Positions 10,721 through 60,687 of a stretch of 64,000 nucleotides of DNA are shown here, in pieces. Source of the stretch: Eledone cirrhosa (Eukaryota); assembly GCA_964016885.1 (NCBI GenBank), contig OZ024740.1, positions 201,996,001-202,060,000 of the forward strand, read 5' to 3'. A model generated the notes under the pieces. The model was not told the origin of the DNA, searched no databases, and saw only the letters and a program-made list of their open reading frames with translations. A program made the translations under genes and the position numbers. How positions within the stretch are numbered: the stretch's first letter is position 1; each line of letters opens with the position of its first letter.

Positions 10721-10809
10721 TATATATATATATATATATATGTTTTTGTATTCATATTTTCATTCTTTAACCATTTGAATAATACTTAGGCAGGGTTTTA
10801 TTATCAAAT

Positions 10810-11904: not shown

Positions 11905-11958
11905 ATGATACTTTCCTCATTCATTAAAGGTAAGTATTTTCTACAGTGACTACAAGTT

Positions 11959-12054: not shown

Positions 12055-12073
12055 CTGGTATAATTAATATATA

Positions 12074-13753
12074 TTTCTATTTATTGCAACGAGGGCGCAA
12101 AAGAAGGGGACAAATACAAGGGGGGAGTTTACACAAAAAGGCGAGTAAAGAAAACAAATAACAAATATAAAATTAACAATAAAGTCCTCAATAGGGAGGA
12201 GGCGTTTTGGGGGGGTCGCACACACACCCGAAAAAAGTGTGCAACCCTTCTCCTCAGGAGCACAAAGAGAGGGTGCTCCCTCGTTCCTTCATCTTTTCCA
12301 TCTACCTGCTGATGTAGAGAGAAGGCCCATTCACATGGGCCATTCTCGCCACTTTCACCCACCTTTCATAAAAACTACTGGGGTGGAGCACCTCTCTCTC
12401 CATCCTGATCCTTCTTCCGAAATGATATCGGAAGAAACGGATCAGTTGTTGGCCAGAGAGAAAGGTGATTGACCTCAGTCCTTTCAGACGCGTCCACCAT
12501 ACAACCTCTTTCGCCATGGCTTTTACGCACAGAAACACCGCCTCTCCTTCATTTTTGAAGGGGGGGAGGCAGCTTAATCGTTACAATGGGTTCGGTGGTC
12601 AACCGAATCGGTCTCACCCGTGATAGCAGTCGTTCGACATAGCCCCACAGATCGACTACGCCCGAGCAGTGTACCAATGCGTGTGCAATGGTTTCCTCGT
12701 CACACACGAATCTGGGACAGATCTTTTTGGCGGGGTCCCTACCCGGACGCCCGTGTCTGTAGAGCTTTTCTCGAACGGGTAGAGCCCCTCGATAGCACTG
12801 CCAGGCTAGGGACTTCTGGAAGTTGTCCATAGGTCCCGGGCTGAATGTCCTACCGAACAGGCTGGCCAGTTCGTTTTCCTCCATGTCTAGGGCTTCTCCA
12901 AGGGCGTTGTCGCACCTGCTGCATACCAGCCCTCTATAGAATGACGAGGTGGAGTCTCCACTGATAACCGGGTCCACTTGCCAGAGGGCCGTGAGCGCCT
13001 GGGCACACTCAGTGTGCCAGGCGCCCAGTTTTCTCGGTCTTTGCTTGACCCAGGATTGCAGCTCGGTGAGTGAGATGAGTCTGGGAAAAGTTCATCTCAC
13101 AAACGGAGCCCACACCGGTTGACCGGTGAGGAATACGTGGAGGTGCCGTAGCCTTAATGCGTGTTTACGCATCATTAGCCACGGCATCCCCAGCCCTCCT
13201 TTCGAAGGGTGTTGACAGCAGATGGATCTCCTCACCAAAGGAATTGGAAGAGTGCGCGCTCCATCTTGGTGAGGGTTTCCCTTGGGCAAGGCACAACGGT
13301 CAGGCGGTAGTAGATGACGGACACTATATAGGTGTTCGCCACCTCCGCCCGACCTTTTAGGGATAGTTTGCAACTGGCCCACTTCTGAGTCAGTGCAAAC
13401 ACCCTGTTCGTAACCTCACTCCAGTTCTTCTCCACCTGGAGGTCTGGTCCGAACCAGACCCCGAGCAACTTCACCGGGCCCTCCGTCCAGCGTCCGACGA
13501 CGCCATCAAGGGCATCAGTTTGCCCCTCCACGTGCCGAGTTGCAAACCAATCGAATTGTCCCGGTTCAGCTTAGCCCCTGTAAACCTTTCGTACTCCTCC
13601 AGTAAGGTGCCGACCGCCCCGATTTCGGAGGCCGTCGACACCATTACTGTCACGTCATCGGCGTAGGCCGACACCGCTTTCCGCAATCCCTGTTCCAAAG
13701 GGATGCCCTGCAACAACTCCAACTTCCGCAGCAGTGGCTCGAGAGTCAATACA
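12074..13753 (-). mobile_element. Tx1/L1-type LINE E1, 5'-truncated and frameshifted
   Basis: TLEPLLRKL...AYADDVTV (RT), GLGMPWL, C-terminal finger region, stop at 12302, and a 3' UTR ending AATAAATAGAAA. Closest to E5. Confidence 0.92.
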
Positions 13754-14105
13754 GTGTCTAATTAATATACGTACTTTCTAATTGATATACACACATATAC
13801 ACTTTAATTAATACACAGATACAGTGTCTAATTAATATACATACTGTTTAATTAATATACAAATTATCTAATATATACACTGTCTAATATATACACACTG
13901 TCTAATACACACACACTGTCTAATATACACACTGTCTAATATACACACTGTCTAATATACACAATGTCTAATATATACACTGTCTAATATACACACTGTC
14001 TAATATATACACTGTCTAATATATACACTGTCTAATATACACACTCTAATATATACACACTGTCTAATATATACACTGTCTAATATACACAGTCTAATAT
14101 ATACA
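13754..14105 (+). repeat. Satellite block A (TGTCTAATATACACAC, degenerate on the left)
   Basis: 14/16-bp monomers; TGTCTAATTAATATAC variants at the left edge. Confidence 0.9.
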
Positions 14106-14123
14106 GGATTTTATATCTATCTA

Positions 14124-14357
14124 TTTTTCCTTTGTGTGATAGCGATGGTGAAAGAGGTTGTATTGAGGAAAGGGGTACAAACTCTGGAGATGAGGGTTGC
14201 ACATTTTTCGGGGGGGGGGGGGTGTTACCCATATGTAATGTCTCCCCCTATTGGGGAAAGTCGACTAATTTTTAAATTGCATTTGTGATAATATTTTACA
14301 CGTTTTTATTGTATGTAAACTTCCTTCTTTTGTGCCACTGTGGCTAATAAAGAAACA
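14124..14357 (+). mobile_element. Short 3'-end Tx1-type copy with internal deletions
   Basis: Matches E3 at 30985-31023 and 31240-31457; flanked by TATCTATCTA (14114-14123) and (TATC)4. Confidence 0.85.
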
Positions 14358-14527
14358 TATCTATCTATCTATCTGCCTGGCGCGTGGAACATCGGCAGTA
14401 AGATTTTTTGTAGATTAACCCCCAAGCTGAATTGTCAACTGGGTGGTAATCCCATTTTCGCACCTAAAGGGGCGAAAATTTTATTTAAAAATTGTTTTAA
14501 AAAATCAAATTTTGCCAACTATAAAAC

Positions 14528-16327
14528 ATGAATAACTCGAAAAGAATGCTAAAGAACGTCGAGAGAGGGAAAGAGGCAGATATTAACGTTATATCTGCTT
14601 CTGCTACTATGGACGTCGTTATGGATACGACTGTCAACAAAGAGAAAAAAATACCACTTGAAGATTTTAAAATTTCTACTGTTGAAGCGGAGAAAAATAA
14701 CAATAACACTACAGGAATTAAACCTATTAATATACATATACATGAAAAAGACAACATCAACAACTCTACAGATACATCTACACATAAAGTTTCACCTCGT
14801 CAAGGAATTGAGATTTCCAACACCGAGGCTAACAACGATAACAGCAACACCACACACAAAAAAATGTCTTTCGCTGAAACAGTGAATAAAAAACAAGATT
14901 TTATAAATCTTGACATCTCCAATGCAAGAGATATGCTCCAGCAACGGAGAAAATTTGTAACTTTCGAAGACAAGGGTGGGTTTAGAATTAACTCACCCCT
15001 CGAAATAAAAGAAGACACAGTTCGAAGGACAGTGACCTTCGGGACTGTATCCAATACAACGAGAAAACCGATATTTGTTAGTCAAGGAGATATAGAAGCC
15101 AACTTGAAGGAAATTCTAGCAAATGTTGACTTTCTCCAACGAGGAAAACAGTACGGAAGTGTTTCCGTACTGTTTAAAAGCGAGGCACTCGCCCAAAAAC
15201 ATTCTGTGACGCCAATGGTGTCAAAAGCATTCAACGTTTTCCCTAGATACATGGGAAAAAGGACACAAAAAATAAAAATATAAAATATACCACCAAACAT
15301 TAACATCTGGTGGATCTTGGCTGGCTTCGTAGAGCCAGAGACTGATATTATTCTTTCGATACGAAAGTCTATTAGACAAAGGTGGGCGGGTACTGATTTG
15401 GAGATTCTGATACAAATGAAGCCGGAGAGAATCTCCAAAATACCCGAAAAATCGTCATCGACGACAACAAAATAAACATTTCGGTAGAAGGGCGTAAATT
15501 TCATTGCTTTCGCTGTGGTAGCACAGCACACCTAAAAGCCCCCTGTCCTTCACAAACACACCACAACAACATCATTAAAAAAACACTATTACCAACACCA
15601 AAACAACCACCACAAGTACAACAACAGACAAAACGAGCAACCACACCAAAACAAACAGCTACTCAACCAACAACAGAAAAACAGAGACAACACCCCTGAA
15701 GAACACAGCCCCACCCCATCCCACTCCATCAAACACACACACCGAAACACCACCACTACACAACATACCCTACCCCATACTCCTGACGATGATTATTCAC
15801 CAACTTTAAGTGAAGAAGAGGGAGAGCCGCGGAAATCTAAAAAACAAAAAAAAAGACACCACAAAACTCCAATCACCAACGCACAACCACAGACAAAGAA
15901 CAACACAAACAACACCACAGTCAAACATCCCCCTACCAGCAAAACCAACACCAACACCACCCCAAACACAAGCACCCACCATAAAAAGAAAACTCTCGGA
16001 CGAACAACAAACTAAAACAACAACAAAAACACAAACAACAATACGCATACATCAACACAAAGAACAAGAGTCTGATGGCGGTCATCTCCCAAAACCCCAA
16101 GGTGGAGACGGAGGGCAAAACTTTCGTCAATAGCAGAATCGTCTCCACACCTTAAACTTATAAGGGTTTCTATGGAAACCTATAATGACCTGAAAAATAA
16201 ATTTTCACAGGACGTGGGCAAGCCCTGCCAGAAACCCATCAACCGCGTCCTGTTAAAATGTTTCCCCACCCCATCCAGCACCCAAATGGAGATTCAACAA
16301 CCCGATCTCCAGGAAACGAAAAGGTAA
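14528..16327 (+). pseudogene. E2 ORF1 (Gag-like nucleic-acid chaperone with CCHC knuckle), disrupted
   Basis: ORF 14528-15283 continues through stops and frameshifts. CFRCGSTAHLKAPC near 15505, a Q/T/P-rich tail, ending MEIQQPDLQETKR*. Homologous to the E3, E4 and E5 ORF1s. Confidence 0.85.
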
Positions 16328-16368
16328 GTACACCTTTCGTCCCTTTTCTCCAACTCTTCTTCACCAAC

Positions 16369-19300
16369 ATGGCTAGTTTACGAGTTGGAACCGTGAACGT
16401 GCGTGGCCTAGGGATGCCCTGGAAACAGGGCCAACTTTTAAACGACCTTAGGGCACACAGTATGGATGTGATAGCCATCACCGAGTCCAGGATTCACAAC
16501 AGGCAGCAACTAACCCCCATCTTCGACGACTTTAAGATCTACGCATCTCTCTGTTAGCCAAGGGGTGGAGGTGGAGTGGCTGTCATGTTTAGGAAGAACC
16601 TGGACGTTGAAGTACAGCAAGTACACTTGGACCCGGAGGGTAGACTGGTAGTCCTAGACGTGAACAGTATTGGAGGTGGAGCCTTCAGACTGGTGGCCGT
16701 TTATGCCCCGACTGGGCAATCGCAATCACGGCCAGACTTCTTTAAGCGTCTAGAGTCTTTTCTGGGAACGTCTCGTTCCTTACTTTTAGTGGGAGACTGG
16801 AATAGTATCCTAGATGCACGATGGGACTATGTGGGAGCATGTCCCAGTAGAGGGAGGTGCAACAGTCTCCAAACTTTAATCGGCCGATTCCAACTGGCCG
16901 ATAGGTATCGACTGGATTTCCCGACTGCACCACAGTGGACGTGGGCAAACCGCAGCGGGACATATAGATCGTATTTAGAAAGGTTCTTCATTAGAGAAAG
17001 GGACAAGGAGATGTTAAGCTGTCCACGAATGCACATGTTTGCCTATTCAGATCACAAATTAGTCGTCTGCATAGTCAACCGTGACAGAACACATAGACAG
17101 GGACCCGGATACTGGAAGCTAAACGTGTCGTTGCCGGCACGTAAAGCTTACAGTGAACGGATAAGTAGACTAGTCAAGCAACAGTTAACGGGAGCCATCG
17201 TCATCAATAGCTGGTGGTACTCTCTCAAGAAAGCAATTAGAGTAGAATCGATAGGGTTTAGCAGAAAGTTAGCCTTAGAGAAAAACAAAGTAGAAAGAGA
17301 ACTAGTAGCCAAGGTAGAGGAGGCATTTAGAAGTGGCAACGCGGCTAGAGTGTTATAGCGTCGAGAACGGCACTGGACCAGTTCTTCGATGCGAAATACG
17401 AAAGCTGCGTGGTCAGAAGCAAAACACGTGCTCTGGGAAACGAAGGAGCGAAAGCTCTCAGCTGGGCCCGAGTGGCGGAGGCAAAAAGTGGCAACAAGTC
17501 CACGATTCGGTCTTTGAAAGACCAAAACGGAGGCGTGCTACTTGACCCCAAGCAAATGTGGGCGGCCTTTCAGCAGCACTTTGCGCGACTGTTTGAACAG
17601 AACGACGGTGAGCCGAACGGGGCAATGGACTTTAGTTCATATCTCGACGGCCTGCCGCGTCTCTCGAACACGGACGCCGAGTTCTGCGACAGACCGATCA
17701 CGGGCACTGAGGCACTGAAATACGGGACGCTCTGGGCCGCTGCGGGAAACGCAAGTCACTCGGTCTAGATGGTCTACCCTATGAGTTTTACATAGGCATG
17801 CCGGACTTGTTCTCTGGCGTCCTCGAAGCCGTCTACTGCAATTGGCAGCAGAACGGGAGAATTCCCAGTTCTGCAGGCAAGGACGTAGTAACGCTGATCA
17901 GGAAAGATGAGAACAAGGGGGACGAAATTAACAACTTCAGGCCCATAACTCTGCTCAACACAGAGTTAAAGATTTTGGCCAAGGTGCTAGCGACGAGGTT
18001 GGCGCTTGTCGTCGAGAACCTGGTAGGGAAAGCGCAAACGTGTGCAATCCCGACCAGGTCTATACACGACAACCTCCACCTCATGCGATACATCATAGAG
18101 AGGATGGGTATTAAACCCGGCTTCGGTGGGGCTCTGATCAATTTGGATTAGTCTAAGGCATTCGATAGGGTCGACCATCGATACTTGGAAGCGGTTCTCA
18201 AGGCGGCCGGTTTCGATCCCGTTTTCAGAGCCCGGATCGAGGCGATGCACACCAGCATCTGCTTGAGGGTCAAGGTGAACAGCTACCTATCGGAGCCGTT
18301 CGCAATCACGCGTTCCATTCGACAGGGGTGCCCTCTCTCCTCCATTCTGTATGTATTGACTCTAGATCCACTACTGCGGAAATTGGAGCTGTTGCAGGGC
18401 ATCCCTCTAGAACCGGGACTGCGCAAAGCGGCGTCGACTTATGCCGACGACGTGACGGTAATGGTGTCGAGCACCTCGGAAATCGGGGTGATCGGCAACT
18501 TACTGAAAGAATACGAAACGCTGACGGGAGCAAAACTAAACCCGGACAAGTCTGTCGGGTTGCAACTCGGTACGTGCAGAGGCAAACCGTTGACGTCCGA
18601 CAGCGTCGTTGGACGCTGGACGGATGGACCGGTGAAATTGCTCGGGTTCTGGTTCGGTTCAGACCTCCAGGTGGAGAAAAACTGGAACGAGGTCACGGCC
18701 AAGGTGTTTGCACCACTCAGAAGTGGGCAGAGTGCAAACTGTCCTTGAAAGGTCGAGCGGAGGTGGCGAACACTTTCATAGCGTCCGTCATCTACTACCG
18801 CTTGACTGTCGTACCTTGTCCCCGTGAACACCTCGCCAAGATGGAACGCATGTTCTTCCAGTTTCTGTGGAAGAAGCAGGCTCCGCTGGTGAGGAGATCC
18901 GTCTGCTGTCAGCACCCTTCCAACGGAGGGCTGGGCATGCCGTGGCTGATGGTGCGCAAACATGCGCTGAGACTGCGGCATCTCCAGGTATTCCTCGCCG
19001 ACCCCCAACCGGTGTGGCCACCGTTTGTGAGACAAGCTTTTCCACAGCTCATCTCGCTGACGGAGCTGCAGTCCTGGGTCAAGAAAAGACCGAAAACGAT
19101 GGGCGCCTGGCACATTGAATGCGCCCAGGCGCTCACAGTCCTCTGGCAAGCGGGCGCAGCAATCAGTGGAGACTCCACTTCGACATTCTATAGAGGGATT
19201 GTACGTTACAAGGGCGACGACGTGCTCTGAGAGACTCGTCGAAGACGATGAGCTCACCAGTCTGTTTGGTAGGACTTTCCGCCCGGGACCTATGAACAAC

Positions 19301-19818
19301 TTCCAGAGGTCCCTGGCCTGGCAGTGCTACCGAGGAGCTCTACCGGTTCGTGACAAGATCTACAGGCACGGACGCCCTGGCAGAGATCCTTCCAAGAGGA
19401 CGTGTCCAAGATGTGCGCAGGACATTGAAACAGTTCTGCACGCAATTGTACACTGCCCGGGCGTAAGCGACCTGTGGAACTATGCAGAACAACTGCTGTC
19501 GCGTATGAGACAAATCCAGTTGACTGCCGAGTCCATAGTAAGGATCAAACCGCCAGACTCTTTCAAAAACGAAAGAGAGGCGGTTTTCCTCTGTACGTGG
19601 CTATGGTGAAAGAAGTTATATGGTGGACGAGGTTGAGAGGACTGAGGACAGATGCCTTTCTCTCCGGACAACAATTGTTTCCCTTCTTTAAGTATCACTT
19701 TAGAAGGAGAATCAGGGTGGAGAGAGAGGCACTGCACCCCAATAAATTTACTGAAAGGTGGGTGAATGAAGCGAAAATGGCCCGAGTGATTGGGCCTTCT
19801 CTGTTTATAAGCCTATAG
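16369..19818 (+). pseudogene. E2 ORF2 (APE endonuclease, reverse transcriptase, Cys/His finger), disrupted
   Basis: NVRGL, E, GDWN, SDH, GYWKLN, FRPITLLN, KAFDRVDH, RQGCPLS, YADD, CPRC..ET..H...HC; several internal stops and frameshifts. Confidence 0.95.
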
Positions 19819-20050
19819 GTTAAAGAAGAGAGCAAAAGGAAGAAAGGAGCACTTGCACAACACGCTCCTGGAGTTGAGGGTTGTTCTATCGACGGGGTAT
19901 TAAACAACCCATTTGTGGCGCCTCCCCCTATTGGGGATTTTGATTGTTGAAATTGTTTGTTTTTATATTTTTTACACGACTGTATGTAAAATCCCCGGCA
20001 TGTCTTTGTATTGTCCCCTTTCTTGTTGCGCCCTTGTGGCTAATAAAGAA

Positions 20051-20051
<1 letters not shown>

Positions 20052-20092
<41 letters not shown>

Positions 20093-20105
20093 TTATCTCT
20101 CTATC
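20052..20105 (+). repeat. (TATC)n microsatellite spacer between E2 and E3
   Basis: About 13 TCTA/TATC units, the last few imperfect. Confidence 0.95.
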
Positions 20106-22946
20106 GGACGTGCGGCAAATCGCTGGTAAGTTTTTATAAAATTTTCAATACAAAAACAGAATTTATTGTGTAAAAATTTATATTGTTTGATAGATTAACA
20201 CCCAGGCTGAAATGTCAGCTGGGTGGTAATCATAGTTTTCGACCCACAGGGGCTGAAAATTAATTTTTAAAAATTGACAAGTTTTTTAAATTTTCATAAC
20301 TTTAACAATGTGTGACTTACAACGAACGCTAGACTGCGAGAAGAGAAGGAAAGAGACAGATATAAACGTTATATCTCCCTCTATTTCCATAGAAGTATCT
20401 ATGGAAACGAACAACAACAAAATTTCGTTTCGTAAAGAAATGAATATTTACACAAAAGATGAAAATAACAGCCCACAATAGACACCAAAAAAAAAAACAC
20501 AGAAACTGCTGTAATTGAAATAATTGACACAACTACACACGAAAAAACAAACAACAACACCAATAAGATGAAAATGTGAACAACACCAACCAGAACAACA
20601 ACAACAATGATAGCAACAACACCAACAACAACAACAGCAACACGTACAACTCCTCAAACAAGGAAAAGATTTCCTTTGCTCAAACCGTCCAAAAGACGGA
20701 ACTGTTTACATACCTTGACATTTCCAATGCTAGGGAGCTGTTAAGTGATGCAAAGCAGTATGTAACTTTTGGTGAGAGTGGTGCTTTCAGCATCACTTCT
20801 CAACAGTTACGTAGAGAAACTATCCTAAAAACAGTAATTTTTAGGACAGTTTCAAATGTGTCAAAAAAACCAGCCCAATTATCCCAAAACGACATTGAAC
20901 TGTTTCTGAAAAATTCAATAAAGGATATTGCCTTCATCCAAAAAGTAAACTTTTGGGAAGCATTTCGGTGTTGATGAAAAACCAATTGACGGCACAGAAA
21001 TATTCTGTGTCGCCGATTGTGTCGCCCCTTTACACCTTTTTCCCCACATATATGGGAAAAAGAACCCTGAAGATTAAAATTTCGAACATTTCACCAAATG
21101 TAAACGTCTGGTGGATTTTGACTGGCTTCATCGATTTCGATGAAGACACCATCATTTCAGTGGGAAAGTCCTCCAGAGGCACATTCAATGGTACCAGCCT
21201 GGAAGTTCTGGTCCAAATAAGGCCAGAATGGATAGCTAAAATACCCCAACGTGTGCCTCTGGATGGAATTTCATTCATAAACATTTCTGTTGAGGTAGGC
21301 GGCCTTCATGTTACCACTGTTTAAGCAGTGGTCACCTGACGGCTTACTGTCCTCAGCTAGCTGCAAAAAAAAGAGGCACTACTGCCAACACCCAAAACAC
21401 CAACACAACCACCACCACCACCACCACAACAACAACAACAACAACAACAACACGCAAATATAACCAAAACAAGAACAACAAACCAAACTGCAAGCACAGT
21501 CCCACCCAACCCCACTCCACCTAAAACCACTGCAAAAACACCCACAAACACAACAGCTCCCCAAAACATACCCCTTCCAAATAACACAGACACCACAACG
21601 GACGAGGCCCCCTCACCATCACTAAGTGACGATGAGGGACAGCCTCTCCGTTCGAAAAGAAAGAAGAAAAGACAGCACAAGAACAAAAAAGCAACAAACA
21701 TTACTACAAACATACAACTACCAACACAAACATTACAAACAACCCCCTCCCCCCGTCCTTCGGGGGGGAGGGGGTTGTTTGTAATGTTTGTGTTGGTGGT
21801 TGCAAAAGCACGACATCACTCCAAACACAAACACCTACAACAAAACGAAAGCTCACACAAGAACAACAGACAAAAACCAACACAATACAAAAAGAACATT
21901 ACACATACATAAACAGTGAAAACAAAACTTTAATGGAGGTCATCTCCCACGACCCTTCGGTGAAAACCGAAGGGAAAACTTTTTCGAACTGTGCAGAGAG
22001 ACCTAATTTAAAGATGATTAGGGTCCCTACGGACACCTATAAGTCTTTAAAGGAAAACTTTCCTAAGGACGTGGGTAATCCTTGTGTTAAACCCATTAAC
22101 CGCGTCCTTTTAAAATGTTTCCCCACCCTCACCCAGACACCCCCGCCCCATCAGACACCCCCTTCCCACCAAACATCTCCGTCACCACCCCGCCGGAAAC
22201 CACCACTCACCCAAACAACCCCTCCAACACCGCCATGGAAATCGTGCAGCCTGGTCCCAAGGAGACGAAGAGGTGAGTGATTTCTTTTCCTCTTCTTTTA
22301 ATTTTTCAGCACCAACATGGCCAATATAAGAGTTTGGATGTGTGAATGTACGCGGCCTGTGGATGCCCTGGAAACAGGGCAAACTCTTAAACGATCTCAG
22401 GCCGCACAGTATGGATGTAGTAGCCATTTGCGAGTCCAGAATCCACAACGAGCGACAGCTGGTCCCCATCTTCGACGACTTTGAGATATACGCATCTCTC
22501 TGTCAGCCGGGAGGTGGGGGTGGGGTTGCCGTTTTGCTGCGGAAACACCTGGACATCGTAACACAGACGATACATCTGGACCCGGAGGGTCGACTGGTGG
22601 TCCTAGACGTTGACGGTAGTGAAGGTGGAGTCTTCAGGCTGGTGATCGCATATGCCCCATACGGGACACTGCGGCCAGACTTCTTCAAACGTCTAGAGAC
22701 TTTTCTGGGAACGTCCCGCTTCTTGCTTTTAGTGGGGGACTGGAATGGAATCCTAGATGCACGTTGGAACTATGTGGGAGCATGTCCCGATAAAGGGGGT
22801 GTAACAGCCTCAAACAGTTAATCGGCGATTTGACCTGGCCGATAGATATCGACTAGATTTTCCGACTGTGCCACTGTGGACGTGGACTAATCGCAGCGGA
22901 ACATCTAGATCGTACCTAGATAGGGTTCTAGTTAGAAATAAAGATA
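20106..22946 (+). mobile_element. Tx1/L1-type LINE E3, 5' half (5' UTR, ORF1 about 20308-22276, ORF2 endonuclease from 22317)
   Basis: ORF1 with CYHCLSSGHLTAYC knuckle; endonuclease motifs up to SYLDRVLVRNKD, where it is interrupted by E4. Confidence 0.92.
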
Positions 22947-23178
22947 ATTTTTTTTATTAGCCACAAGGGCACAAAAGAATGGGACAAATACAAATGGGGA
23001 GTTTACATACAGGCATATGAAAATAAAACTATTAATAAAATAACAAATAACAATTGATATCCCCAATAGAGGGGAGGTGTTACACAGGGGTTGTACACAC
23101 CCCCAAAAATGTACAACCTTCTTCTCCAGGAGCACCAACAGTGAGTACTCCCTTCCTCTCTTCCCCTTTTTCCTCAAC

Positions 23179-26100: not shown

Positions 26101-26990
26101 GCCGGGTCCTCGTCTATGGGTTCTATCTATGGGACCATGCAGGTCACTAGTTTGTGATCTGAATAGGCAACCATGAACATTTGTGGACAGCTTAACATGT
26201 CCCTATCTTTATCTATCTATCTGGGATGGACACACGCGTGAAACTTGCTGGGTAAGTTCAGCTTCCAGTAGCCAGGTCCCTGTCTATGGGTTTTGTCAAG
26301 GTTGACTAAGCAGGTCACTAATTTGTGATCTGAATAAGCAACCACGAATATTTGTGGACAGCTTAACATGTCCTTATCCTTCTTTCTAACTAGAACCCTA
26401 TCTAGGTACGATCTATATGTTCCGCTGCGATTAGTCCACGTCCACAGTGGCACAGTCGGAAAATCTAGTCGATATCTATCGGCCAGGTCAAATCGCCGAT
26501 TAACTGTTTGAGGCTGTTACACCCCCCTTTATCGGGACATGCTCCCGCATAGTCCCAACGTGCATCTAGGATTCCGTTCCAGTCCCCCACTAACAGCAGG
26601 GAGCGAGACATTCCCAGAAAAGTCTCTAGACGTTTGAAGAAGTCTGGCCGCGGTGTCCCGTATGGGGAATATGCGGCCACCAGCCTGAAGGCTTCACCTT
26701 CATTACCGTCAACGTCTAGGACCACCAGTCACCCTCCGGGTCTAGATGTACCGTCTGTTTTACGAGGTCCAGGTGTTTCCGCAGCAAAACGGCAACCCCG
26801 CCCCCACCTCCCGGCTGACAGAGAGATGCGTAGATCTCAAAGTCGTCGAAGATGGGGGCCAATTGTCGCTCGCAGTGGATCCTGGACTCGCAAATGGCTA
26901 CTACATCCATACTGTGCGACCTGAGGTCGTTTAAGAGTTTGCCCCGTTTCCAGGGCATCCCCAGGCCGCGTACATTCACACATTGGCCAT
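23179..26990 (-). pseudogene. E4 ORF2 (endonuclease and reverse transcriptase), disrupted by deletions and two templated insertions
   Basis: ORF fragments 26465-26725, 26217-26453, 24617-25741 and 23236-23706 carry EN, RT and finger motifs. Confidence 0.9.
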
Positions 26991-27030
26991 GTTGGTGCTG
27001 AAAAGTTAAAAGAAGAGGAAAAGAAATCAC

Positions 27031-28555: not shown

Positions 28556-28610
<55 letters not shown>

Positions 28611-28880
28611 CTCAATTGCTTGATCTGTGGTTGCGGAATTCATTTGTGAAGTTGTGTTTTCGTTCCTAGCATTGTTGTTATTGTTGTTGCTGGTGCCGCT
28701 GGTTGTGTTGTTTTGGTTTGTTGCCATGGCAACGTCAAGTTGTCGGTCAGCAGGTGGAGAAAATCCTTCCTCTGGCTGACCTTTGTCTTTGACATCTGCT
28801 ACTATGACAGTGGTAGGGGCAAGCTGTAAGCATATCTTCCCCTTTCTTCCTTCGAATGTTGGTGAAGAAGCTTCAGCCAT
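27031..28880 (-). pseudogene. E4 ORF1, frameshifted
   Basis: Fragments 28413-28880, 28072-28419, 27684-27947 (CCHC) and 27027-27326; (AAC)n tract at about 28555-28610. Confidence 0.85.
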
Positions 28881-29094
28881 TTTTTTTAAATGTTAGCTTT
28901 TCCAAAAAAACCTTTTATGTACTATTTCGCCTAAAGGCGTAGAATATTTTGAGAAACTGACCAGATCAAAATTTGACCTGGCATCCCCCGAAAAATTGGT
29001 ATAAAAATGAAGGTTCACAGTTAAGAATTTCTATAGAAATTTAGGCAGAACTTACCCAGCAAGTTTCACGCGTGTGTCCATCCCAGATAGATAG

Positions 29095-34400: not shown

Positions 34401-36535
34401 ATACACGGTCTAATACATACACTGTCTATTATACACACTGTCTAATTTACACACTGTCTAATATATACACTGTCTAATATACACTGTGTAATATACACTG
34501 TCTAATATACACACCGTATAATATATAATATACAAACGTTCTAATATACACACTGTCTAATATACACACTGTCTAATATACACACTGTCTAATATACACA
34601 CTGTCTAATATATACACTGTCTAATATACACACTGTCTAATATCCGCATGTCTAATATATACACTGTCTAATATACACACTGACTAATACACACACTGTC
34701 TAATATATACACTGTCGAATATACACACTGTCTAATATATACACTGTCTAATATATACACTGTCTATCATACACACTGTCTAATATACACACTGTTTAAT
34801 ATACACACTGTCTAATATACACACTGTCTAATATATACACTGTCTAATATATACACTGTCTAATATACACACTGTCTAATATACACACTGTCGAATATAT
34901 ACACTGTCTAATATACACTGTATAATATATACACTGTCTAATATATACACGGTCTAATACATACACTGTCTAATATACACACTGTCTAATTTACACACTG
35001 TCTAATATATACACTGTCTAATATACACTGTGTAATATACACTGTCTAATATACACACCGTATAATATATAATATACAAACGGTCTAATATACACACTGT
35101 CTAATATACACACTGTCTAATATACACTTTTTAATATACACACTGTCTAATATATAGCCACTTTCTAATATATACACTGTCTAATATATACACTGTCTAA
35201 TATATACACTGTCTAATATACACACTGACTAATATACACACTGTCAATATACACACTGTCCAATATACACACTGTCTAATATACACACTGTCTAATATAT
35301 ACAATGTATAATATACACACTGTCTAATATATACACTGTCTAATATACACAATGTCTAATATACACACTGTCTAATATACATTGTCTAACATACTCACTG
35401 TCTAATATATACACTGTCTAATATATACACTGTCTAACATACACGCTGTCTAATATATACACTGTCTAATATACACTCTGTCTAATATACACACTGTCTG
35501 ATATACACTGTCTAATATACACACTGTCTAATATATACACTTTCTAATATACACACTGTCTAATATATACACTGTCTAATATATACAGTGTCTATTACAC
35601 ACACTGTCTAATATACACACTGTCCAATATACACACTATCTAATATACACACTGTCAAATATATACACTGTCTAATATACAGACTGTCTAATATACACTG
35701 TCTAATATACAAACTGTTTAATATAAACACTGTCTAATATACACACTGTCTAATATACACACTGTCTAATGTATACACTGTCTAATATACACACTGCCTA
35801 ATATGCACTCTCTAATATACACACTGTTTAATATAAACACTGTCTAATATACACTATCTAATATATGCAATGTCTAATATATACTCTGCCTAATATATAC
35901 ACTGTCTAATATATACACTGTCTAATTTATACACTGTCTAATATACACACAATGTCTAATATACACTGTCTAATTCACACACTGTCTAATATACACACTG
36001 TTTAATATACACTGTCTAATATACACACTGTCTAATATACACACTGTCTAATATACACTGTCTAATATACACACTGTCTAATATACACACTGTCTAATAT
36101 ACACACTGTCTAATATATACACTGTCTAATATACACACTGTCTAATATACACTGTCTAATTCACACACTGTCTAATATATACACTGTCTAATATACACTG
36201 TCTAATTTACACACTGTCTAATATACACACTCTCTAATATACACTGTCTAATATACACACTGTCTAATATACACACTGTCTAATATACACTGTCTTATAT
36301 ACACACTGTTTAATATACACACTGTCTAATATATGCACTGTCTAATATACACTGTCTAATTCACACACTGTCTACTATACACACTGTCTAATATACACTG
36401 TCTAATATACACTGTCTAATATACACGCTGTCTAATATACACACTGTATAATATACACACTATCTAATATACAGTGTGTAATGTATACACTGTCTAATAT
36501 ACACACTGTCTAATATATACACTGTCTAATATATT

Positions 36536-36802
36536 CCCACACCCGAAAACAAAACACCCACAACAAAGAGAAAACACATACCGGAACCACAGACAAAAAC
36601 AAACACAACACAGGAAAAGTACACATACACTTACATAAACGAAGAAAATAGAACACTGATGGAGACCATCAGAAACAACCCTTTGCTCAAAACCGAAGGG
36701 AAAACTTTGGATAGCTCCAACAAAAACAAAAAAATGAACCTAAAACTGATCAGGGTCCCTATAGGAACTTATAGATCCCTAAAAGAAACATTTGTAGAGG
36801 AC
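36536..36802 (+). mobile_element. 267-bp ORF1 fragment of E5 embedded in the satellite (copy 1)
   Basis: Near-identical to 39221-39487, including the left junction. Confidence 0.95.
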
Positions 36803-38398
36803 ACTGTCTAATTTACACACTGTCTAATATACACACTCTCTAATATACACTGTCTAATATACACACTGTCTAATATACACACTGTCTAATATACACTGTC
36901 TTATATACACACTGTTTAATATACACACTGTCTAATATATGCACTGTCTAATATACACACTGTCTAATATACACACTGTCTAATATACACTTTTTAATAT
37001 ACACACTGTCTAATATATAGCCACTTTCTAATATATACACTGTCTAATATATACACTGTCTAATATATACACTGTCTAATATACACACTGACTAATATAC
37101 ACACTGTCAATATACACACTGTCCAATATACACACTGTCTAATATACACACTGTCTAATATATACAATGTATAATATACACACTGTCTAATATATACACT
37201 GTCTAATATACACAATGTCTAATATACACACTGTCTAATATACATTGTCTAACATACTCACTGTCTAATATATACACTGTCTAATATATACACTGTCTAA
37301 CATACACGCTGTCTAATATATACACTGTCTAATATACACTCTGTCTAATATACACACTGTCTGATATACACTGTCTAATATACACACTGTCTAATATATA
37401 CACTTTCTAATATACACACTGTCTAATATATACACTGTCTAATATATACAGTGTCTATTACACACACTGTCTAATATACACACTGTCCAATATACACACT
37501 ATCTAATATACACACTGTCAAATATATACACTGTCTAATATACAGACTGTCTAATATACACTGTCTAATATACAAACTGTTTAATATAAACACTGTCTAA
37601 TATACACACTGTCTAATATACACACTGTCTAATGTATACACTGTCTAATATACACACTGCCTAATATGCACTCTCTAATATACACACTGTTTAATATAAA
37701 CACTGTCTAATATACACTATCTAATATATGCAATGTCTAATATATACTCTGCCTAATATATACACTGTCTAATATATACACCGTCTAATTTATACACTGT
37801 CTAATATACACACAATGTCTAATATACACTGTCTAATTCACACACTGTCTAATATACACACTGTTTAATATACACTGTCTAATATACACACTGTCTAATA
37901 TACACACTGTCTAATATACACTGTCTAATATACACACTGTCTAATATACACACTGTCTAATATACACACTGTCTAATATATACACTGTCTAATATACACA
38001 CTGTCTAATATACACTGTCTAATTCACACACTGTCTAATATATACACTGTCTAATATACACTGTCTAATTTACACACTGTCTAATATACACACTCTCTAA
38101 TATACACTGTCTAATATACACACTGTCTAATATACACACTGTCTAATATACACTGTCTTATATACACACTGTTTAATATACACACTGTCTAATATATGCA
38201 CTGTCTAATATACACTGTCTAATTCACACACTGTCTACTATACACACTGTCTAATATACACTGTCTAATATACACTGTCTAATATACACGCTGTCTAATA
38301 TACACACTGTATAATATACACACTATCTAATATACAGTGTGTAATGTATACACTGTCTAATATACACACTGTCTAATATATACACTGTCTAATATATT

Positions 38399-38665
38399 CC
38401 CACACCCGAAAACAAAACACCCACAACAAAGAGAAAACACATACCGGAACCACAGACAAAAACAAACACAACACAGGAAAAGTACACATACACTTACATA
38501 AACGAAGAAAATAGAACACTGATGGAGACCATCAGAAACAACCCTTTGCTCAAAACCGAAGGGAAAACTTTGGATAGCTCCAACAAAAACAAAAAAATGA
38601 ACCTAAAACTGATCAGGGTCCCTATAGGAACTTATAGATCCCTAAAAGAAACATTTGTAGAGGAC
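38399..38665 (+). mobile_element. 267-bp ORF1 fragment of E5 embedded in the satellite (copy 2)
   Basis: Same sequence and both junctions as 36536-36802, 1863 bp downstream. Confidence 0.95.
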
Positions 38666-39220
38666 ACTGTCTAATTTACACACTGTCTAATATACACACT
38701 CTCTAATATACACTGTCTAATATACACACTGTCTAATATACACACTGTCTAATATACACTGTCTTATATACACACTGTTTAATATACACACTGTCTAATA
38801 TATGCACTGTCTAATATACACACTGTCTAATATACACACTGTCTAATATACACTGTCTAATTCACACACTGTCTACTATACACACTGTCTAATATTCACT
38901 GTCTAATATACACTGTCTAATATACACGCTGTCTAATATACACACTGTATAATATACACACTATCTAATATACAGTGTCTAATGTATACACTGTCTAATA
39001 TACACACTGTCTAATATACACACTGTCTAATATACACTGTCTAATTCACACACTGTCTACTATACACACTGTCTAATATACACTGTCTAATATACACTGT
39101 CTAATATACACGCTGTCTAATATACACACTGTATAATATACACACTATCTAATATACAGTGTGTAATGTATACACTGTCTAATATACACACTGTCTAATA
39201 TATACACTGTCTAATATATT

Positions 39221-42200
39221 CCCACTCCCGAAAACAAAACACCCACAACAAAGAGAAAACACATACCGGAACCACAGACAAAAACAAACACAACACAGGA
39301 AAAGTACACATACACTTACATAAACGAAGAAAATAGAACACTGATGGAGACCATCAGAAACAACCCTTTGCTCAAAACCGAAGGGAAAACTTTGGATAGC
39401 TCCAACAAAAACAAAAAAATGAACCTAAAACTGATCAGGGTCCCTATAGGAACTTATAGATCCCTAAAAGAAACATTTGTAGAGGACGTGGGGAATTACT
39501 GCGTGAAACCAATCAACCGCGTTATCTACAAAGGCCTCCCCACCAGAGGCACCCCCACCCAAGTCATCCTCACCCCACCAGACACCCCTTCCCCACCAAA
39601 CATCTCCGTCCCCACCCCGCCAGAAACCACCACCCCACCCAACAACCCATCCCCCACCCTCATGGAAATTGTGCAGCCCGATACCCGGGACGCAGAGAGG
39701 TAAGTGCCTTTTCTCTTCAACACCAACATGGCAATGCTAAGAGTAGGCTGTTTAAATGCGCGTGGCCTGGGCTCAACTTGGAAGAAAGCAATGTTTCTAA
39801 ATGACCTCAGGTCACAACGTATAGATGTGATGGTTATTTGCGAGGCCCGGATCAGCAACGTGCGACAGCTGGCCCCCACCTTTGATGACTTTGAGATGCA
39901 CGCATCTCTCTGTCAGCCCGGAGGTGGGGGTGGGGTTGTCGTTCTGCTGCAAAAACATCTGGGTCTCGCAACACAGATGGTACATTTGGACCCGGAGGGT
40001 CAACTAGTGGTTCTGGACCTTGGCAGTGGTGAAGGCGGAGCGTTTAGGTTGGTAGCCGCCTACGGCCCTTTCGGGTCAATGCGGCCGGACTTCTTCCATC
40101 GTCTGGAGACTTTTCTAGGGACCTCCCGCTCCTTGCTATTAGTGGGGGACTGGAATGGTATCCTAGATGCACGCTGGGACTACGTAGGGGCCTGTCCCGA
40201 TAGAGAGGGGTGTAATAGCCTCAAAGGGTTAATCGGTCGATTTGACCTGGCCGATAGATATCGACTAGATTTTCCGACTGCTCCAACCTGGACTTGGGCA
40301 AATCGTAGCGGATCATCTAGGTCGTACCTAGATAGGTTCTTAGTTAGAGTTAAGGATAAGGACTTTTTAAGTTGTCCAAAAATGCGCATGGTTGGCTATT
40401 CAGACCACAAGTTAGTGACCTGCATGGTCAACCTTGACAGAACTCATAGACAGGGACCCGGTTACTGGAAGCTCAACTTGTCCTTACCGGCAAGTAAGGC
40501 TTACAGGGAGCGGATTAGCACTTTAGTTAAGGAGCGGTTGACGGGCGCCATCGTCAACAGCAGGTGGTGAGGATCTCTCAAAAGAGAGCTTAGAGTAGTC
40601 TCTATAGAATTTAGTAAGGAGTTAGCCTCAAATAGAAATAGGAAGGAAAGGGAGTTGGTAGATAGTGTAGAAGAGGCAATTAGAAGCGGCGACGTGGCCA
40701 GAGTGCTAGCGTCGAGAACGGCCCTGGGCCAGTTCTTCGACGCGAAACACGAAGGCTGCTTCGTCCGAAGCAAAATACGTGCTCTGGGAAACGAGGGGAC
40801 CAAAGCTGTTAGCTGGGCCCGCGTGACAGAAGCCAAAAGAGGGAGCAGATCCACTATCCGGTCTTTGCGCGACCAGGATGGATGGGTGATCCTTGAACCT
40901 AAGCAGATGTGCGAGGCTTTTCAAAAGCACTTTGCCGGATTGTTCGGAAGGGGCGGGGAGCCGGTTGGGGATGTGAACTTCGGTCTATACCTCGACGGCC
41001 TGCCGCGTCTCTCGGACAGGGAGGCGAAGTCCTGCGAGGAGCCGATTTCAGCCGCTGAGATAGAGGACGTGCTGAGCCAATGCGGCAAACGCAAATCCCC
41101 GGGTCTCAATGGTCTTCCTTACGAACTATATCTAGCTATGCCGGATTTGTTCCCCGATCTCATCGAGGCGGTCTACTGCAACTGGCAACAGAACGGGAGA
41201 ATTCCCTGTGCTGTGACCAAGGGCGTAGTCACGCTAGTGAGGAAGGACGAGAACAAGGGGGACGATATAAATAATTTCAGGCCCATAACTCTGCTAAATA
41301 CAGAGTTACAGATTTTGGCCAAGGTGCTAGCAAAGAGGTTGGCGCTTGTCGTGGGCAACCTGGTGGGAGATGCGCAGACATGTGCTATCCCGTCCAGGTC
41401 CATCCACGACAACCTCCACCTCATGCGATACATCATAGAGAGGGTTGGGAACGAATCCGGCTTTGGTGGGGCCCTGATCAACTTGGATCAATCTAAGGCA
41501 TTCGATAGGGTCGACCATGGTTACCTGGATGCGGTGCTAGCGGCGGCAGGCTTCGGACCCGTTTTCAGGGGCTGGATCAATGCCATGCACAGCAGCCGCA
41601 TCTGCTCTAGAGTCAAGGTGAACGGCTACCTCTCGGAGCCGTTCGAAATCGCGCGGTCCATCCGACAGGGGTGCCCTCTCTCCTCCCTTCTGTATGTAAT
41701 GACTCTAGAGCCACTGCTGCGGAAGTTGGAGTTGTTGCAGGGCATCCCGTTGGAACGAGGATTGCGGAAAGCGGTGTCGGCCTACGCCGACGACGTAACA
41801 GTAATGGTGTCTACGGCCTCGGAAATCGGGGCGATCGGCACCTTACTGGAGGAGTACGAAAGGTTTACAGGGGCTAAGCTGAACCGGGACAAGTCGATCG
41901 GTCTGCAACTCGGCACGTGGAGGGGCAGATTGATGCCCTCCGATGATGTCGTCGGGCGCTGGACGGAGGGCCCGGTGAAGTTGCTCGGGGTCTGGTTCGG
42001 ACCAGACCTCCAGGTGGAGAAGAACTGGGGTGAGGTAGCGAACAGGGTATTTGCACTGACCTAGAAGTGGGCCGAGTGCAAACTGTCCCTGAAAGGTCGG
42101 GCGGAGGTGGCGAACACTTATATAGCATCCGTCATCTACAACCGACTGACCGTTGTGCCTTGCCAAAGGGAAAAGCTCGCAAAAATGGAGCGCGCACTCT

Positions 42201-43427
42201 TCCAATTCCTTTGGCAGAAGCGGGCTCCTATGGTGAGGAGATCCATCTGCTGTCAACACCCTTCGAAAGGAGGGCTGGGGATGCCGTGGCTAATGATACG
42301 TAAACACGCATTAAGGCTACGGCACCTTCAGGTATTCCTCACCGGTCAACCGGTGTGGGCCCCATTTGTGAGGCGAGCCTTTCCCAGACTCGTCTCACTC
42401 ACCGAGCTGCAATCCTGGGTCAAGCAAAGACCGAGAAAACTGGGCGCCTGGCACACCGTGTGTGCCCAGGCGCTCACGGCTCTCTGGCAGGCGGACCCGG
42501 CTGTCAGTGGAGAATCCACTTGTCATTCTATAGAGGGCTGGTGGTTAGCAGGTGCGACGACGCCCTCGGAGAAGCCCTAGACATGGAGGAAGACGAACTG
42601 GCCAACCTGTTCGGTAGGACATTCAGCCCGGAACCACGGATAACTTCCAGAGGTCCCTGGCCTGGCAATGCTCCAGAAGGGCTCTGCCCGTTCGAGAAAG
42701 GCTCTACAGACACGGGCGCCGGGGTAGGGACCCCTCGAAAAAGATATGTCCCAGATGCGTGTGCGACGAGGAAACCGTTGCACACGCATTGTTACACTGC
42801 TCGGGCATTGCCGATCTGTGGGGCTATGTCGAACAACTGCTGTCAAGGGTGGGACCGATCCGGTTGACCACCGAGTCTATTGTAACGATCAAGACGCCTC
42901 CCCTCTTCAAAAACGAAGGAGAGGTGGTGTTTCTGTGCGTAATAGCCATGGCGAAAGAGGTTGTATGGTGGACGCGTCTGAAAGGACTGAGGTCAGACAC
43001 CTTTCTCTCTGGCCAACAACTGGTCCGTTTCTTCCGATATCATTTCGGAAGAAGGATCAGGATGGAGAGAGAGGTGCTGCACCCCAGCCGTTTTTATGAA
43101 AGATGGGTGAAAGTGGCGAGAATGGCCCGTGTGAATGGGCCTTCACTCTACACCAGACTATAGGTGAGGAAGATGAAAGACCAAGGGAGCACCCTCTCTC
43201 TGTGCTCCTGAGGAAAAGGGTTGCGCACTTTTTTTCGGGGGTGGGTGCGACCCCCCAAGGCGCCTCTTCTCTATTGAGGATTTTGTTATAAATTTTATTC
43301 TGTTATATTTTATTTTATTTTTATATTTTGTTATTGCCTCCTCCTTATTGAGGACGCCTTGTTTTGTAAACTCCCCCCCATTGTACTTGTCCCACTTTTG
43401 ATGCCCTGGTGGCAAATAAAAGAAACA
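39221..43427 (+). mobile_element. Tx1/L1-type LINE E5, truncated within ORF1
   Basis: ORF1 tail to 39703, ORF2 39728-43163, 3' UTR ending AATAAAAGAAACA|TATCTAATATAC; satellite on both sides. Confidence 0.95.
39728..43163 (+). pseudogene. E5 ORF2 (best-preserved EN-RT; stops at 40570 and 42064, 3' frameshifts)
   Basis: A 288-aa endonuclease ORF and a 469-aa RT ORF in the same frame, with GDWN, SDH, RQGCPLS and YADD. Confidence 0.95.
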
Positions 43428-46400
43428 TATCTAATATACACAACGTCTAATATATACACTGTCTAATATATACACTGTCTAATATACACACTGTCTAATA
43501 TATACATTGTCTAATATACACACTGTCTAATTTACACACTGTCTAATATATACGCTGCCTAATATACACTGTCTAATATAGACTGTCTAATATAAACACT
43601 GTCTAATATACACTGTCTAATATATACACTGTCTAATATAGACTGTCTAATATACACACTGTCTATTATACACACACAGTCTAATATACACACTGTCTAA
43701 TATACACTGTCTGATATACACACTGTCTAATATACACACTGTCTAATATATACACTGTCTAATATACTCACTGTCTAATATACACACTGTCTAATATACA
43801 CAAACTGTCTAATATACACACTGTCTAATACGCACACTGTCTAATATACACTGTCTAATATATACACTGTCTAATATAGACTGTCTAATATACACACTGT
43901 CTATTATACACACACTGTCTAATATACACGCTGTCTAATATACACACTGTCTAATATATACACTGTCTAATATACTCACTGTCTAATATACACACTGTCT
44001 AATATACTCAAACTGTCTAATATACACACTGTCCAATATACACACTGTCTAATACACACACTGTCTAATATACACACTGTCTAATAATCACTGTCTAATA
44101 TACACACTGTCTAACATACACTGCCTAATAAACACACTGTCTAATATACACACTGTCTAATATATACACTATCTAATATACACACTGTCTAATATATACA
44201 CTGTCTCATATATATACCGTCTAATTTACACACTGTCTATTATACACACACTGTCTAATATACACACTGTCTAATATCCACTGTCTAATATACACTGTCT
44301 AATATATACACTGTCTAATATACAATGTAAAATATGTACACTGTCTAATATACACACTGTCTAATATGCACACTGTCTAATATATACACTGTCTAATATA
44401 CACTGTCTAATATATACGCTGTCTCATATATATATACTCTCTAAATTAAACACTGTCTAATATACACACTGTCTAATATACACACTGTCTAATATACACA
44501 CTGTCTAATATACACACTGTCCAATATATACAATGTATAATATACACTGCCTAATATATACACTGTCTGATATACACACTGTCTAATATATACCCTGTCT
44601 AATATACACAATGTCTAATATACACAGTCTAATATACACTGTCTAATATACACACTGTCTAAAATATACACTGTCTAATATACACACTGTCTAATATATA
44701 CACTGTCTAATATATACAGTGTCTAGTACACACGCTGTCTAATATACACACTGTCTAATATATACACTGTCTAATATACACACTGTCTAATATACACACT
44801 GTCTAATATACACATGTCTAATATATACACTGACTAATATACACACTGTCTAATACACACACTGTCTAATATATACACTGTCTAACATACACTGCCTAAT
44901 ATACACACTGTCTAATATACACACTGTCTAATATATACACTATCTAATATACACACTGTCTAATATACACACTGTCTCATATATACACTCTCTAATATAC
45001 ACACTGTCTAATATACACACTCTCTAATATACACACTGTCTAATATACACACTGTCTAATATATACACTGTCTAATATACACAGTGTCTAATATACACTG
45101 CCTAATATACACACTGTCTAATATATGCACACTGTCTAATACACACGCTGTGTAATATACACCCTGTCTAATATACAGTTTCTAATACACACACTGTCTA
45201 ATACACACACTGTCTAATATACACATTGTCTAATATACAGTTTAATATACAGTGTCTAATACATACACTGTCTAATACACACACTGTCTAATATACACAC
45301 TGTCTAATATACAGTTTAATATACAGTGTCTAATACACACACTGTCTAATATACACGTTGTCTAATATATACACTCTCTAATATATACACTGTCTAATAT
45401 ACACACTGTCTAATATGCACACTGTCTAATATTCACTGTCTAATATACACACTGTCTAATATGTACAATGTATAATATACACACTGTCTAATATATACGC
45501 TGTCTAATATACACACTGTCTAATATATACACTGTCTAATATACACAATGTCTAATATACACACTGTCTAATATACACCTGTCTAACATACACACTGTCT
45601 AATATATACACTGTCTAATACATACACTGTCTAATATACACACTGTCTAATTTACACACTGTGTAATATATGCACTGTCTAATATACACTGTGTAATATG
45701 CACTGTCTAATATACACACAGTCTAATATTCACACTGTCTAATATATACACAGTCTAATATACACACTGTCTAATATACACAATGTCTAATATACACACT
45801 GTCTAATATACACACTGTCTAATATACACACTGTCTAATACACACACTGTCAAATATACACACTGTCTAATATACACACTGTCTAATATACACACTGTCC
45901 AATATATACAATGTATAATATACACTGCCTAAATATACACTGTCTGATATACACACTGTCTAATATATACCCTGTCTAATATACACAATGTCTAATATAC
46001 ACAGTCTAATATACACTGTCTAATATACACACTGTCTAATATATACACTGTCTAATATACACACTATCTAATATATACACTGTCTAAAATATACAGTGTC
46101 TAGTACACACGCTGTCTAATATACACACTGTCTAATATATACACTGTCTAATATACACACTGTCTAATACACACACTGTCTAATATATACACTGTCTAAT
46201 ATACACATTGTCTAATATATACACTCTCTAATATATACACTGTCTAATATACACACTGTCTAATATGCACACTGTCTAATATACACACTGTCTAATATAC
46301 ACATGTCTAATATATACACTGTCTAATATACACAATGTCTAATATACACACTGTCTAATATACACCTGTCTAACATACACACTGTCTAATATATACACTG

Positions 46401-58373: not shown

Positions 58374-60687
<2,314 letters not shown>

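What the first reader, a model, noticed from the sequence alone, without database searches (positions are those of the whole stretch)
12074..43440. A TATC/GATA-targeting Tx1-type retrotransposon family colonising a 16-bp satellite
Seen: five of six 3' ends run from AATAAA-GAAA(CA), or a short A run, straight into (T)ATCT. They are at 14358 (TATCTATC), 20051 (ATCTATC), 22946 on the minus strand (TATCTTTAT), 31458 and 43428 (TATCTAATA, a minority variant of the TGTCTAATA monomer). E1 has the near match TATATA. The targets occur in three unrelated contexts: microsatellite, satellite, and another element's ORF2. Known: Tx1-clade APE elements are often sequence-specific (for example Kibi/(TC)n, Koshi/(TTC)n, Keno/U2 snRNA). 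Inference: this is a TATCT-specific lineage with at least three diverged subfamilies that uses this satellite as a landing zone. I do not recognise it as a described family.
Basis: partly seen in the sequence, partly recalled or inferred. Interest (0 to 1): 0.85.

Follow-up and report, generated by a model that had tools for sequence, protein, structure and literature searches.

The report
Octopod retrotransposon seeding its own target
Six copies of one LINE-type retrotransposon, likely from an octopod, sit here with TATCT (once TATAT) directly after their 3' ends, and one copy has 10 extra bases of TATC repeat at its head that the empty site lacks, so the family likely targets TATC/GATA repeats and likely plants new landing sites for its own next copies.

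Summary
Six copies (E1-E6) of an L1/Tx1-group non-LTR retrotransposon (endonuclease, reverse transcriptase, zinc finger) end 6-7 nt after AATAAA, without poly(A); five run into TATCT, one into TATAT. The closest named relative is from Argonauta hians (62% aa), so the host is likely an octopod. The target is real at E5: it split E4's ORF2 at a pre-existing TATCT with a 9-bp duplication, and the empty site is seen in public contigs. E5 has 10 nt of (TATC)n at its head that the empty site lacks, and E3 and E4 also start in (TATC)n, which explains the head-to-tail chain E2-E3-E4. At E6 (and more weakly E1) the upstream flank copy reads TG where the 3' copy reads TA, so the satellite 'minority variant' may be RNA-written on an ordinary monomer. 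Raw reads from another sample show a further 3' end-(TATC)n-copy junction. Best reading: a (TATC)n-targeting family whose RNA carries target repeat at both ends. Microsatellite-targeting Tx1 families are known; I found no (TATC)n target in the papers searched, but Repbase/Dfam could not be checked and Tx1 membership is untested by tree.

The parts
12074..13753 (-). E1, 5'-truncated copy (3' part of ORF2 and 3' UTR); 3' flank TATAT (12069-12073), 5' side TGTAT (13749-13753, also matches the element's own letters)
   Evidence: 89% to E6
13749..14105 (+). short, partly degenerate piece of the 16-bp satellite, left of the nested block
14114..14124 (+). TATCTATCTAT, upstream copy of E2's target duplication
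14125..14357 (+). E2, 5'-truncated, internally deleted 3' end of the E4 type
14358..14374 (+). (TATC)4T spacer: 3' flank of E2 and head of E3
14375..20053 (+). E3, full-length, decayed; ORF1 about 14528-16327 with one CCHC knuckle, ORF2 about 16369-19818
20054..20105 (+). (TATC)n spacer: 3' flank of E3 and head of E4
20106..22946 (+). E4, 5' half (5' UTR, ORF1, endonuclease part of ORF2), ending in one copy of E5's 9-bp target duplication (22938-22946)
22947..29084 (-). E5, full-length but rearranged copy inserted antisense into E4's ORF2
29085..29094 (-). 10 extra nt CTATCTATCT at E5's 5' end, absent from the empty site
   Evidence: (X1 loose end at 29095, 6 contigs)
29095..31457 (+). second copy of the 9-bp duplication (29095-29103) and E4 3' half with an internal deletion near 29955-29983
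31458..54843 (+). 16-bp satellite array, consensus TCTAATATACACACTG, about 1460 units as one TRF row, with interruptions
36534..36801 (+). copy of E6's 5' junction and first ~270 bp, made by satellite duplication
38397..38664 (+). second such copy (1863 bp downstream of the first, 822 bp upstream of E6)
39219..43427 (+). E6, 5'-truncated in ORF1; ORF2 39728-43163 with two internal stops and one frameshift: endonuclease, RT, zf-RVT

Best explanation
These are six insertions of one L1/Tx1-group non-LTR retrotransposon family whose 3' ends abut TATCT or TATAT, which likely targets (TATC)n/(GATA)n repeats, and whose RNA likely carries a few TATC units at both ends, so that each full-length insertion would plant a fresh target at its own head. 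Steps: (1) shown: ORF2 has an L1-type endonuclease, RT and zinc finger; ends are fixed 6-7 nt after AATAAA with no poly(A). (2) shown once (E5): TATCT was in the target, 9 bp were duplicated, and 10 nt of TATC repeat were added at the 5' junction. (3) inferred: because the poly(A) signal is so close to the end, cleavage falls in the downstream (TATC)n, so the RNA ends in (UAUC)n; the endonuclease nicks the GATA strand, the RNA tail pairs with the nicked end and reverse transcription starts there. (4) inferred: this pairing tolerates near matches such as the common satellite monomer TGTCT and rewrites it to TATCT at the 3' junction. (5) inferred: transcription starts in the upstream (TATC)n, the copied repeat is joined at the 5' end, and later copies insert into it, giving head-to-tail chains (order E4, then E3, then E2; E5 into E4).
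For: Junctions and fixed spacing. Empty site of E5 seen in the ORF2 of other copies and in 6 contigs of run X1 (table 7); TATCT occurs at only 8 of about 10,400 strand-positions of the host E4. E2 is 5'-truncated yet has TATCTATCTAT upstream, so it entered an existing repeat. All 3 of 3 full-length 5' ends start in TATC repeat. Upstream TG versus downstream TA at E6 and E1. Raw reads of run X22: a joint from 31463 back to 30149 with TCTATCTATCAATCTATCTAT between (112-113 reads, 1 start) and one from 31463 to 30143 (78 reads, 2 starts, letters between not given), i.e. other loci where a 3' end is followed by another copy. Endonuclease catalytic residues conserved; model pLDDT 94.9, best matches human L1 endonuclease, TM 0.85. 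Pairing of RNA 3' end with the nicked target is proposed for SART1Bm and R1Bm (PMC7265360, passages).
Against: Six copies in one window, partly nested, so not independent. The 5' carry-over is shown by one insertion only; slippage at the junction could also make those 10 nt. The E6 mismatch could be a later mutation, satellite homogenisation, or a 5' junction made at another monomer; at E1 the upstream TGTAT overlaps letters the element itself has, so it is weak. No clean duplication can be found for E4. E1's flank is TATAT, E5's tail is A-rich. One search listed only 15 of 127 joints and 24 of 2610 loose-end rows, none of the listed loose ends at the 3' end, so no flank logo could be made; the spacer joint has a single read start. 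No RNA or enzyme data.
Confidence: 0.62

Rival explanations
1. Pure endonuclease specificity: the enzyme cuts strictly at TATCT, picks the rare TATCT monomers of the satellite, and the RNA carries no target repeat at its 3' end.
For: Both main satellite junctions read TATCTAATA though that monomer is 25 of 980 (chance 0.00065 for two); E5's site is a true TATCT.
Against: E6's upstream flank copy reads TGTCTAATATA in three copies; it does not explain E5's 10 extra head bases.
Confidence: 0.2
2. Tail only: the element simply encodes a TATCT/(TATC)n tail and head (microsatellite seeding), its endonuclease is unspecific, and apparent targeting comes from a few bases of microhomology at priming.
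For: Fixed spacing after AATAAA; TG-to-TA asymmetry at E6 and E1; E1's poor match; the X22 spacer joins an internal CTATC of the next copy in register.
Against: E5 hit a full TATCT present at under 0.1% of positions; E2 entered a 17-bp repeat and E3 ends in a 52-bp one; most 3' flanks carry no more than 5-6 nt of repeat, unlike encoded repeat tails.
Confidence: 0.13
3. The cluster was built by recombination and duplication in a satellite region, not by repeated targeted insertion; shared junctions are copies of one ancestral junction.
For: Real duplications are present: 1863- and 822-bp satellite offsets, a 96% inverted copy at 25727-26262, a 97.5% ORF1 piece at 23960-24360.
Against: The six copies are 75-91% alike, truncated at different points, in both orientations, with different flanks; E5 and E2 have target duplications.
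Confidence: 0.05

Closest known systems
Kibi/(TC)n, Koshi/(TTC)n and crocodilian (TTCC)n/(TTTC)n Tx1 families (PMC4494074, passages and section 15; PMC3812793, passages)
   Same: APE-type non-LTR elements inserted in pyrimidine-rich microsatellites on the sense strand.
   Different: Target here is (TATC)n, host likely an octopod; kinship by tree not tested.
Tx1 families that target satellites or other transposons (Tx1 in Tx1D, Tx1-Mar; 'Sat' in the legend of Fig. 3 of PMC4494074; the figure itself was not visible)
   Same: Insertion into satellites and other elements; tandem insertions around a duplicated target.
   Different: Here the satellite looks like a near-match side target, and the head repeat is longer than the target duplication.
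SART1Bm and R1Bm (R1 clade; PMC7265360, passages)
   Same: RNA 3' bases proposed to pair with the nicked target; R1Bm needs downstream target sequence.
   Different: Other clade, telomere and rDNA targets; SART1 inserts with poly(A).
Double-insertion tandems of non-LTR elements (PMC5932611, passages)
   Same: Head-to-tail and tail-to-internal tandems from repeated insertion at a preferred site.
   Different: There the target duplication renews the site; here E5 shows extra repeat added beyond the duplication.
Human L1 (ORF2p 8sxt; endonuclease 1vyb)
   Same: ORF2 layout and endonuclease fold.
   Different: No poly(A) tail, no TT/AAAA site, ORF1 has a CCHC knuckle and no Pfam L1 ORF1 hit.
L1-Tx1 families of Octopus vulgaris (PMC13282606, passages: 13 recently active families, 421 insertions)
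   Same: Likely the class these copies would be annotated in.
   Different: The word 'target' does not occur in that paper's main text; its family sequences were not compared.

Membership tests
L1 group of non-LTR retrotransposons (L1, Tx1) | ORF2 with N-terminal APE endonuclease, RT and C-terminal zinc finger | tested here: met
   Pfam Exo_endo_phos 2.4e-08, RVT_1 2.1e-25, zf-RVT 5.4e-06 (27.4 bits, cut-off 27.5); best solved match L1 ORF2p 8.5e-45, R2 8e-20
L1 group of non-LTR retrotransposons (L1, Tx1) | Endonuclease fold closest to L1 EN, catalytic residues present | tested here: met
   top 12 Foldseek hits are L1 EN or ORF2p
Tx1 clade | RT phylogeny groups with named Tx1 references (Tx1L, Keno, Dewa, Kibi, Koshi) | tested here: inconclusive
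   Tree of 161 of 167 RT regions held no named Tx1 or vertebrate L1 reference; it shows only a supported group (0.979) of P0001, P0002, P0003, P0014, P0115-P0117, P0263 among mostly unnamed relatives
Tx1 clade | Two ORFs; ORF1 with RNA-binding region and CCHC knuckle rather than the vertebrate L1 ORF1 (recalled feature) | tested here: inconclusive
   CCHC knuckle read directly in E3, E4, E5; 4 ORF1 pieces gave no Pfam family above cut-off; no longer homologue found; RRM not shown
Tx1 clade | Target preference (common, not strictly defining) | tested here: met
Kibi / Koshi | Target (TC)n or (TTC)n | tested here: not met
   flanks are TATCT/(TATC)n
Vertebrate-type L1 clade | Poly(A) tail and TT/AAAA insertion site (recalled) | tested here: not met
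   no copy has a poly(A) tail beyond 8 A including the signal
A catalogued Repbase/Dfam octopus family | Match to a library consensus with this target | not testable with these tools

The most novel reading that the evidence does not exclude
An octopod-wide retrotransposon lineage that manufactures its own targets: every full-length insertion exports (TATC)n at its head and rewrites near-match sites at its tail, so that it nucleates head-to-tail arrays anywhere, is a source of GATA/TATC microsatellites in octopus genomes, and feeds pieces of itself into satellite higher-order repeats. Relatives in one limpet contig (11 proteins with locus tags 3393-3415) and on one 26-kb contig (5 proteins) hint that array building is an old trait of this branch.
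Probability: 0.4. Interest if true: 0.7.

Novelty: new variant of a known kind. Interest (0 to 1): 0.5.

Why it matters
It adds a (TATC)n/(GATA)n target to the list of sequence-specific APE retrotransposons, likely in cephalopods, where the papers I searched describe no target for L1-Tx1 families. It gives a natural case in which endonuclease choice and RNA-DNA pairing can be told apart from sequence alone (the G/A asymmetry between the two flank copies), and one insertion with a known empty site that shows target repeat being carried to a new place. That links three things usually treated apart: target-specific insertion, birth of microsatellites, and growth of tandem arrays inside satellites.

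Tried and rejected
No whole genome is held, so no genome-wide logo. Viral contigs: 73 pattern matches, none a relative. Metagenome contigs gave 53 loci of distant relatives (23-45% in the best segment); none held three or more TATC/GATA units in a row, and of 31 inspected at the 3' end two (L007, L008) show poly(A) tails: too distant to bear on this family's target. Sequencing runs: no RNA holder listed; organisms with small shares that I did not lay are not used. ESM Atlas for a close ORF2 relative gave only unnamed RT clusters. Earlier findings of the scan: three look-ups, nothing. ORF1 had no homologue among longer proteins; its RRM-like part is untested. Paper searches for a described (TATC)n/(GATA)n-targeting element found none; supplements of PMC4494074 could not be read and its Fig. 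3, which lists targets, is not held, so a known family with this target could be hidden there or in Repbase. Rejected: chance; one junction copied many times; the satellite's TATCT variant as proven target.
Full report
Layout. Self-comparison and reading of the window give six copies of one element between 12074 and 43427, about 23 kb in all: E1 (minus, truncated), E2 (short 3' piece), E3 (full length), E4 (full length, split), E5 (minus, full length, inside E4) and E6 (truncated, inside the satellite). E2, E3 and E4 lie head to tail, separated only by (TATC)n. The block is flanked on both sides by a 16-bp satellite.

What the element is. E6's ORF2, read with X at its stops, has an APE endonuclease and RT, and a zf-RVT just under cut-off after a frameshift. 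Its best solved relative is human L1 ORF2p. The endonuclease keeps its catalytic residues, and its model matches L1 EN best. ORF1 has one CCHC knuckle in E3, E4 and E5. The closest named protein is from Argonauta hians, 62% over 54% of the query, so the host is likely an octopod; the species is not known. Twenty listed runs from 16 studies hold part of E6's 3' kilobase; I laid four and all four cover the E4 3' half, with 18,702 contigs in X1 and 199,620 of 12.5 million reads in X22 at 80% likeness, so the family is abundant. A tree of 161 of 167 RT regions (six too short were dropped) had no named Tx1 reference; clade membership is therefore open, and 'Tx1-like' rests on layout, lack of poly(A) and target preference.

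The 3' junctions. They are also in fixed register: TATCT (E1: TATAT) starts 6 nt after AATAAA in five copies and 7 nt in E6. Of 104 AATAAA sites in the window only the five element ends are followed by TATCT. This rules out chance but leaves target versus encoded tail open.

E5 settles that TATCT can be target. It interrupts E4's ORF2 with a 9-bp duplication TATCTTTAT (22938-22946, 29095-29103). The uninterrupted sequence is seen at the homologous place of E3, E5 and E6 and directly in 6 contigs of X1. TATCT occurs 8 times on both strands of 5195 bp of E4. E2, which lacks a 5' end, has TATCTATCTAT upstream, so it too entered an existing repeat.

Between the duplication and E5's first base are 10 nt, CTATCTATCT, which are not in the empty site. 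E3 and E4 also begin directly in TATC repeat (3 of 3 full-length heads). The simplest reading is that transcription starts in the upstream repeat and a few units are copied to the new site, in register with the TAT at the end of the duplication; slippage at the junction is the alternative. Either way a new target appears at the head of the new copy, which accounts for the chain E2-E3-E4.

At E6 the upstream flank reads TGTCTAATATA and the downstream TATCTAATATA; the upstream form is the same in two duplicated copies of that junction. At E1 the pair is TGTAT and TATAT, though there the upstream letters also match the element. If the target had been the rare TATCT monomer (25 of 980) both copies should read TA. 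The pattern fits an ordinary TG monomer whose first bases were rewritten from an RNA ending in UAUCU. By general knowledge (recalled) cleavage falls 10-30 nt after AAUAAA, which here is inside the downstream flank. Mutation, homogenisation or a 5' junction at another monomer are not excluded, and E4 shows no clean duplication at all.

Outside evidence. In raw reads of X22 a 3' end continues through TCTATCTATCAATCTATCTAT into another copy at position 30149, where the element itself reads CTATC (112-113 reads, one start); a second joint lands at 30143 (78 reads, two starts, letters between not given). Only 15 of 127 joints and 24 of 2610 loose-end rows were shown, so this is an example, not a count. 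Two relatives look arrayed by their records alone: 11 limpet proteins (29% identical) with locus tags between 3393 and 3415 on a contig of one length, and 5 proteins of a closer unnamed relative all with a 26,301-bp contig. I could not read their DNA.

Comparison with print. Tx1 families on (TC)n, (TTC)n, (TTCC)n/(TTTC)n, satellites and transposons are described (PMC4494074: passages and section 15; PMC3812793: passages). RNA-target pairing is proposed for SART1Bm and R1Bm (PMC7265360: passages); tandems by double insertion in PMC5932611 (passages). Octopus papers list L1-Tx1 without targets in the passages seen (PMC13282606; PMC8967140). PMC4455052, PMC5786205 and PMC3747384 (passages) added nothing on this target. 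Kojima and Fujiwara 2004 was not read. Eight searches found no (TATC)n-targeting family; Repbase, Dfam, the figure and supplements of PMC4494074 were not visible and could hold one.

Verdict. A real feature. It works like the known microsatellite-targeting Tx1 elements, with a target I could not find described, plus one clear case of target repeat carried to a new site. New variant of a known kind; interest 0.5; mechanism confidence about 0.6.

Noticed in passing
window 16321-16330, 22268-22278, about 27027-27040 (minus), 39695-39706: In E3, E4, E5 and E6 the ORF1 stop codon lies inside a splice-donor-like AG|GTRAGT followed by a pyrimidine tract before the ORF2 start; a GTAAG also sits 23-35 nt into the 5' UTR of E3, E4 and E5. 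Only E4 and E5 have an AG before the ORF2 start. Could mark spliced ORF1 or ORF2 messages.
   Followed up: partly
window 36534-36801 and 38397-38664: A 270-bp piece of E6's 5' end with its satellite flank has been copied twice by 822- and 1863-bp duplications: element sequence entering a higher-order satellite repeat.
   Followed up: partly
window 25727-26262, 23960-24360, 21715-21802: Rearrangements between the inverted E4 and E5: a 96% inverted copy of 29045-29579 (including E5's own head junction), a 97.5% copy of E4's ORF1, and an 88-bp local palindrome.
   Followed up: partly
window 31460-54843: The satellite has exact internal duplications at offsets 1863, 927, 635, 822 and 1125 bp; run X1 holds a contig that repeats the monomer.
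   Followed up: partly
window 2389-2599, 2865-3088, 5456-5684, 9916-10072, 11290-11487, 11745-11906: Six copies of a 150-230-bp dispersed repeat, 75-87% alike, bounded by TTAACCCTTT...AAAGGGTTAA-like inverted ends: probably a MITE.
   Followed up: no
window 61846-61981, 10634-10728, 60537-60737: Near-perfect or partial palindromes (136 bp at 93%; others 76-78%) beside (TA)n runs.
   Followed up: no
window 11952-12054: 39-bp tandem repeat (2.7 copies) right beside E1's 3' flank, containing ATTAGACAC, the reverse complement of part of the satellite unit.
   Followed up: no
protein cluster of P0120 (Patella caerulea) and cluster of P0117: Relatives whose records suggest tandem arrays of the element on single contigs.
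   Followed up: partly
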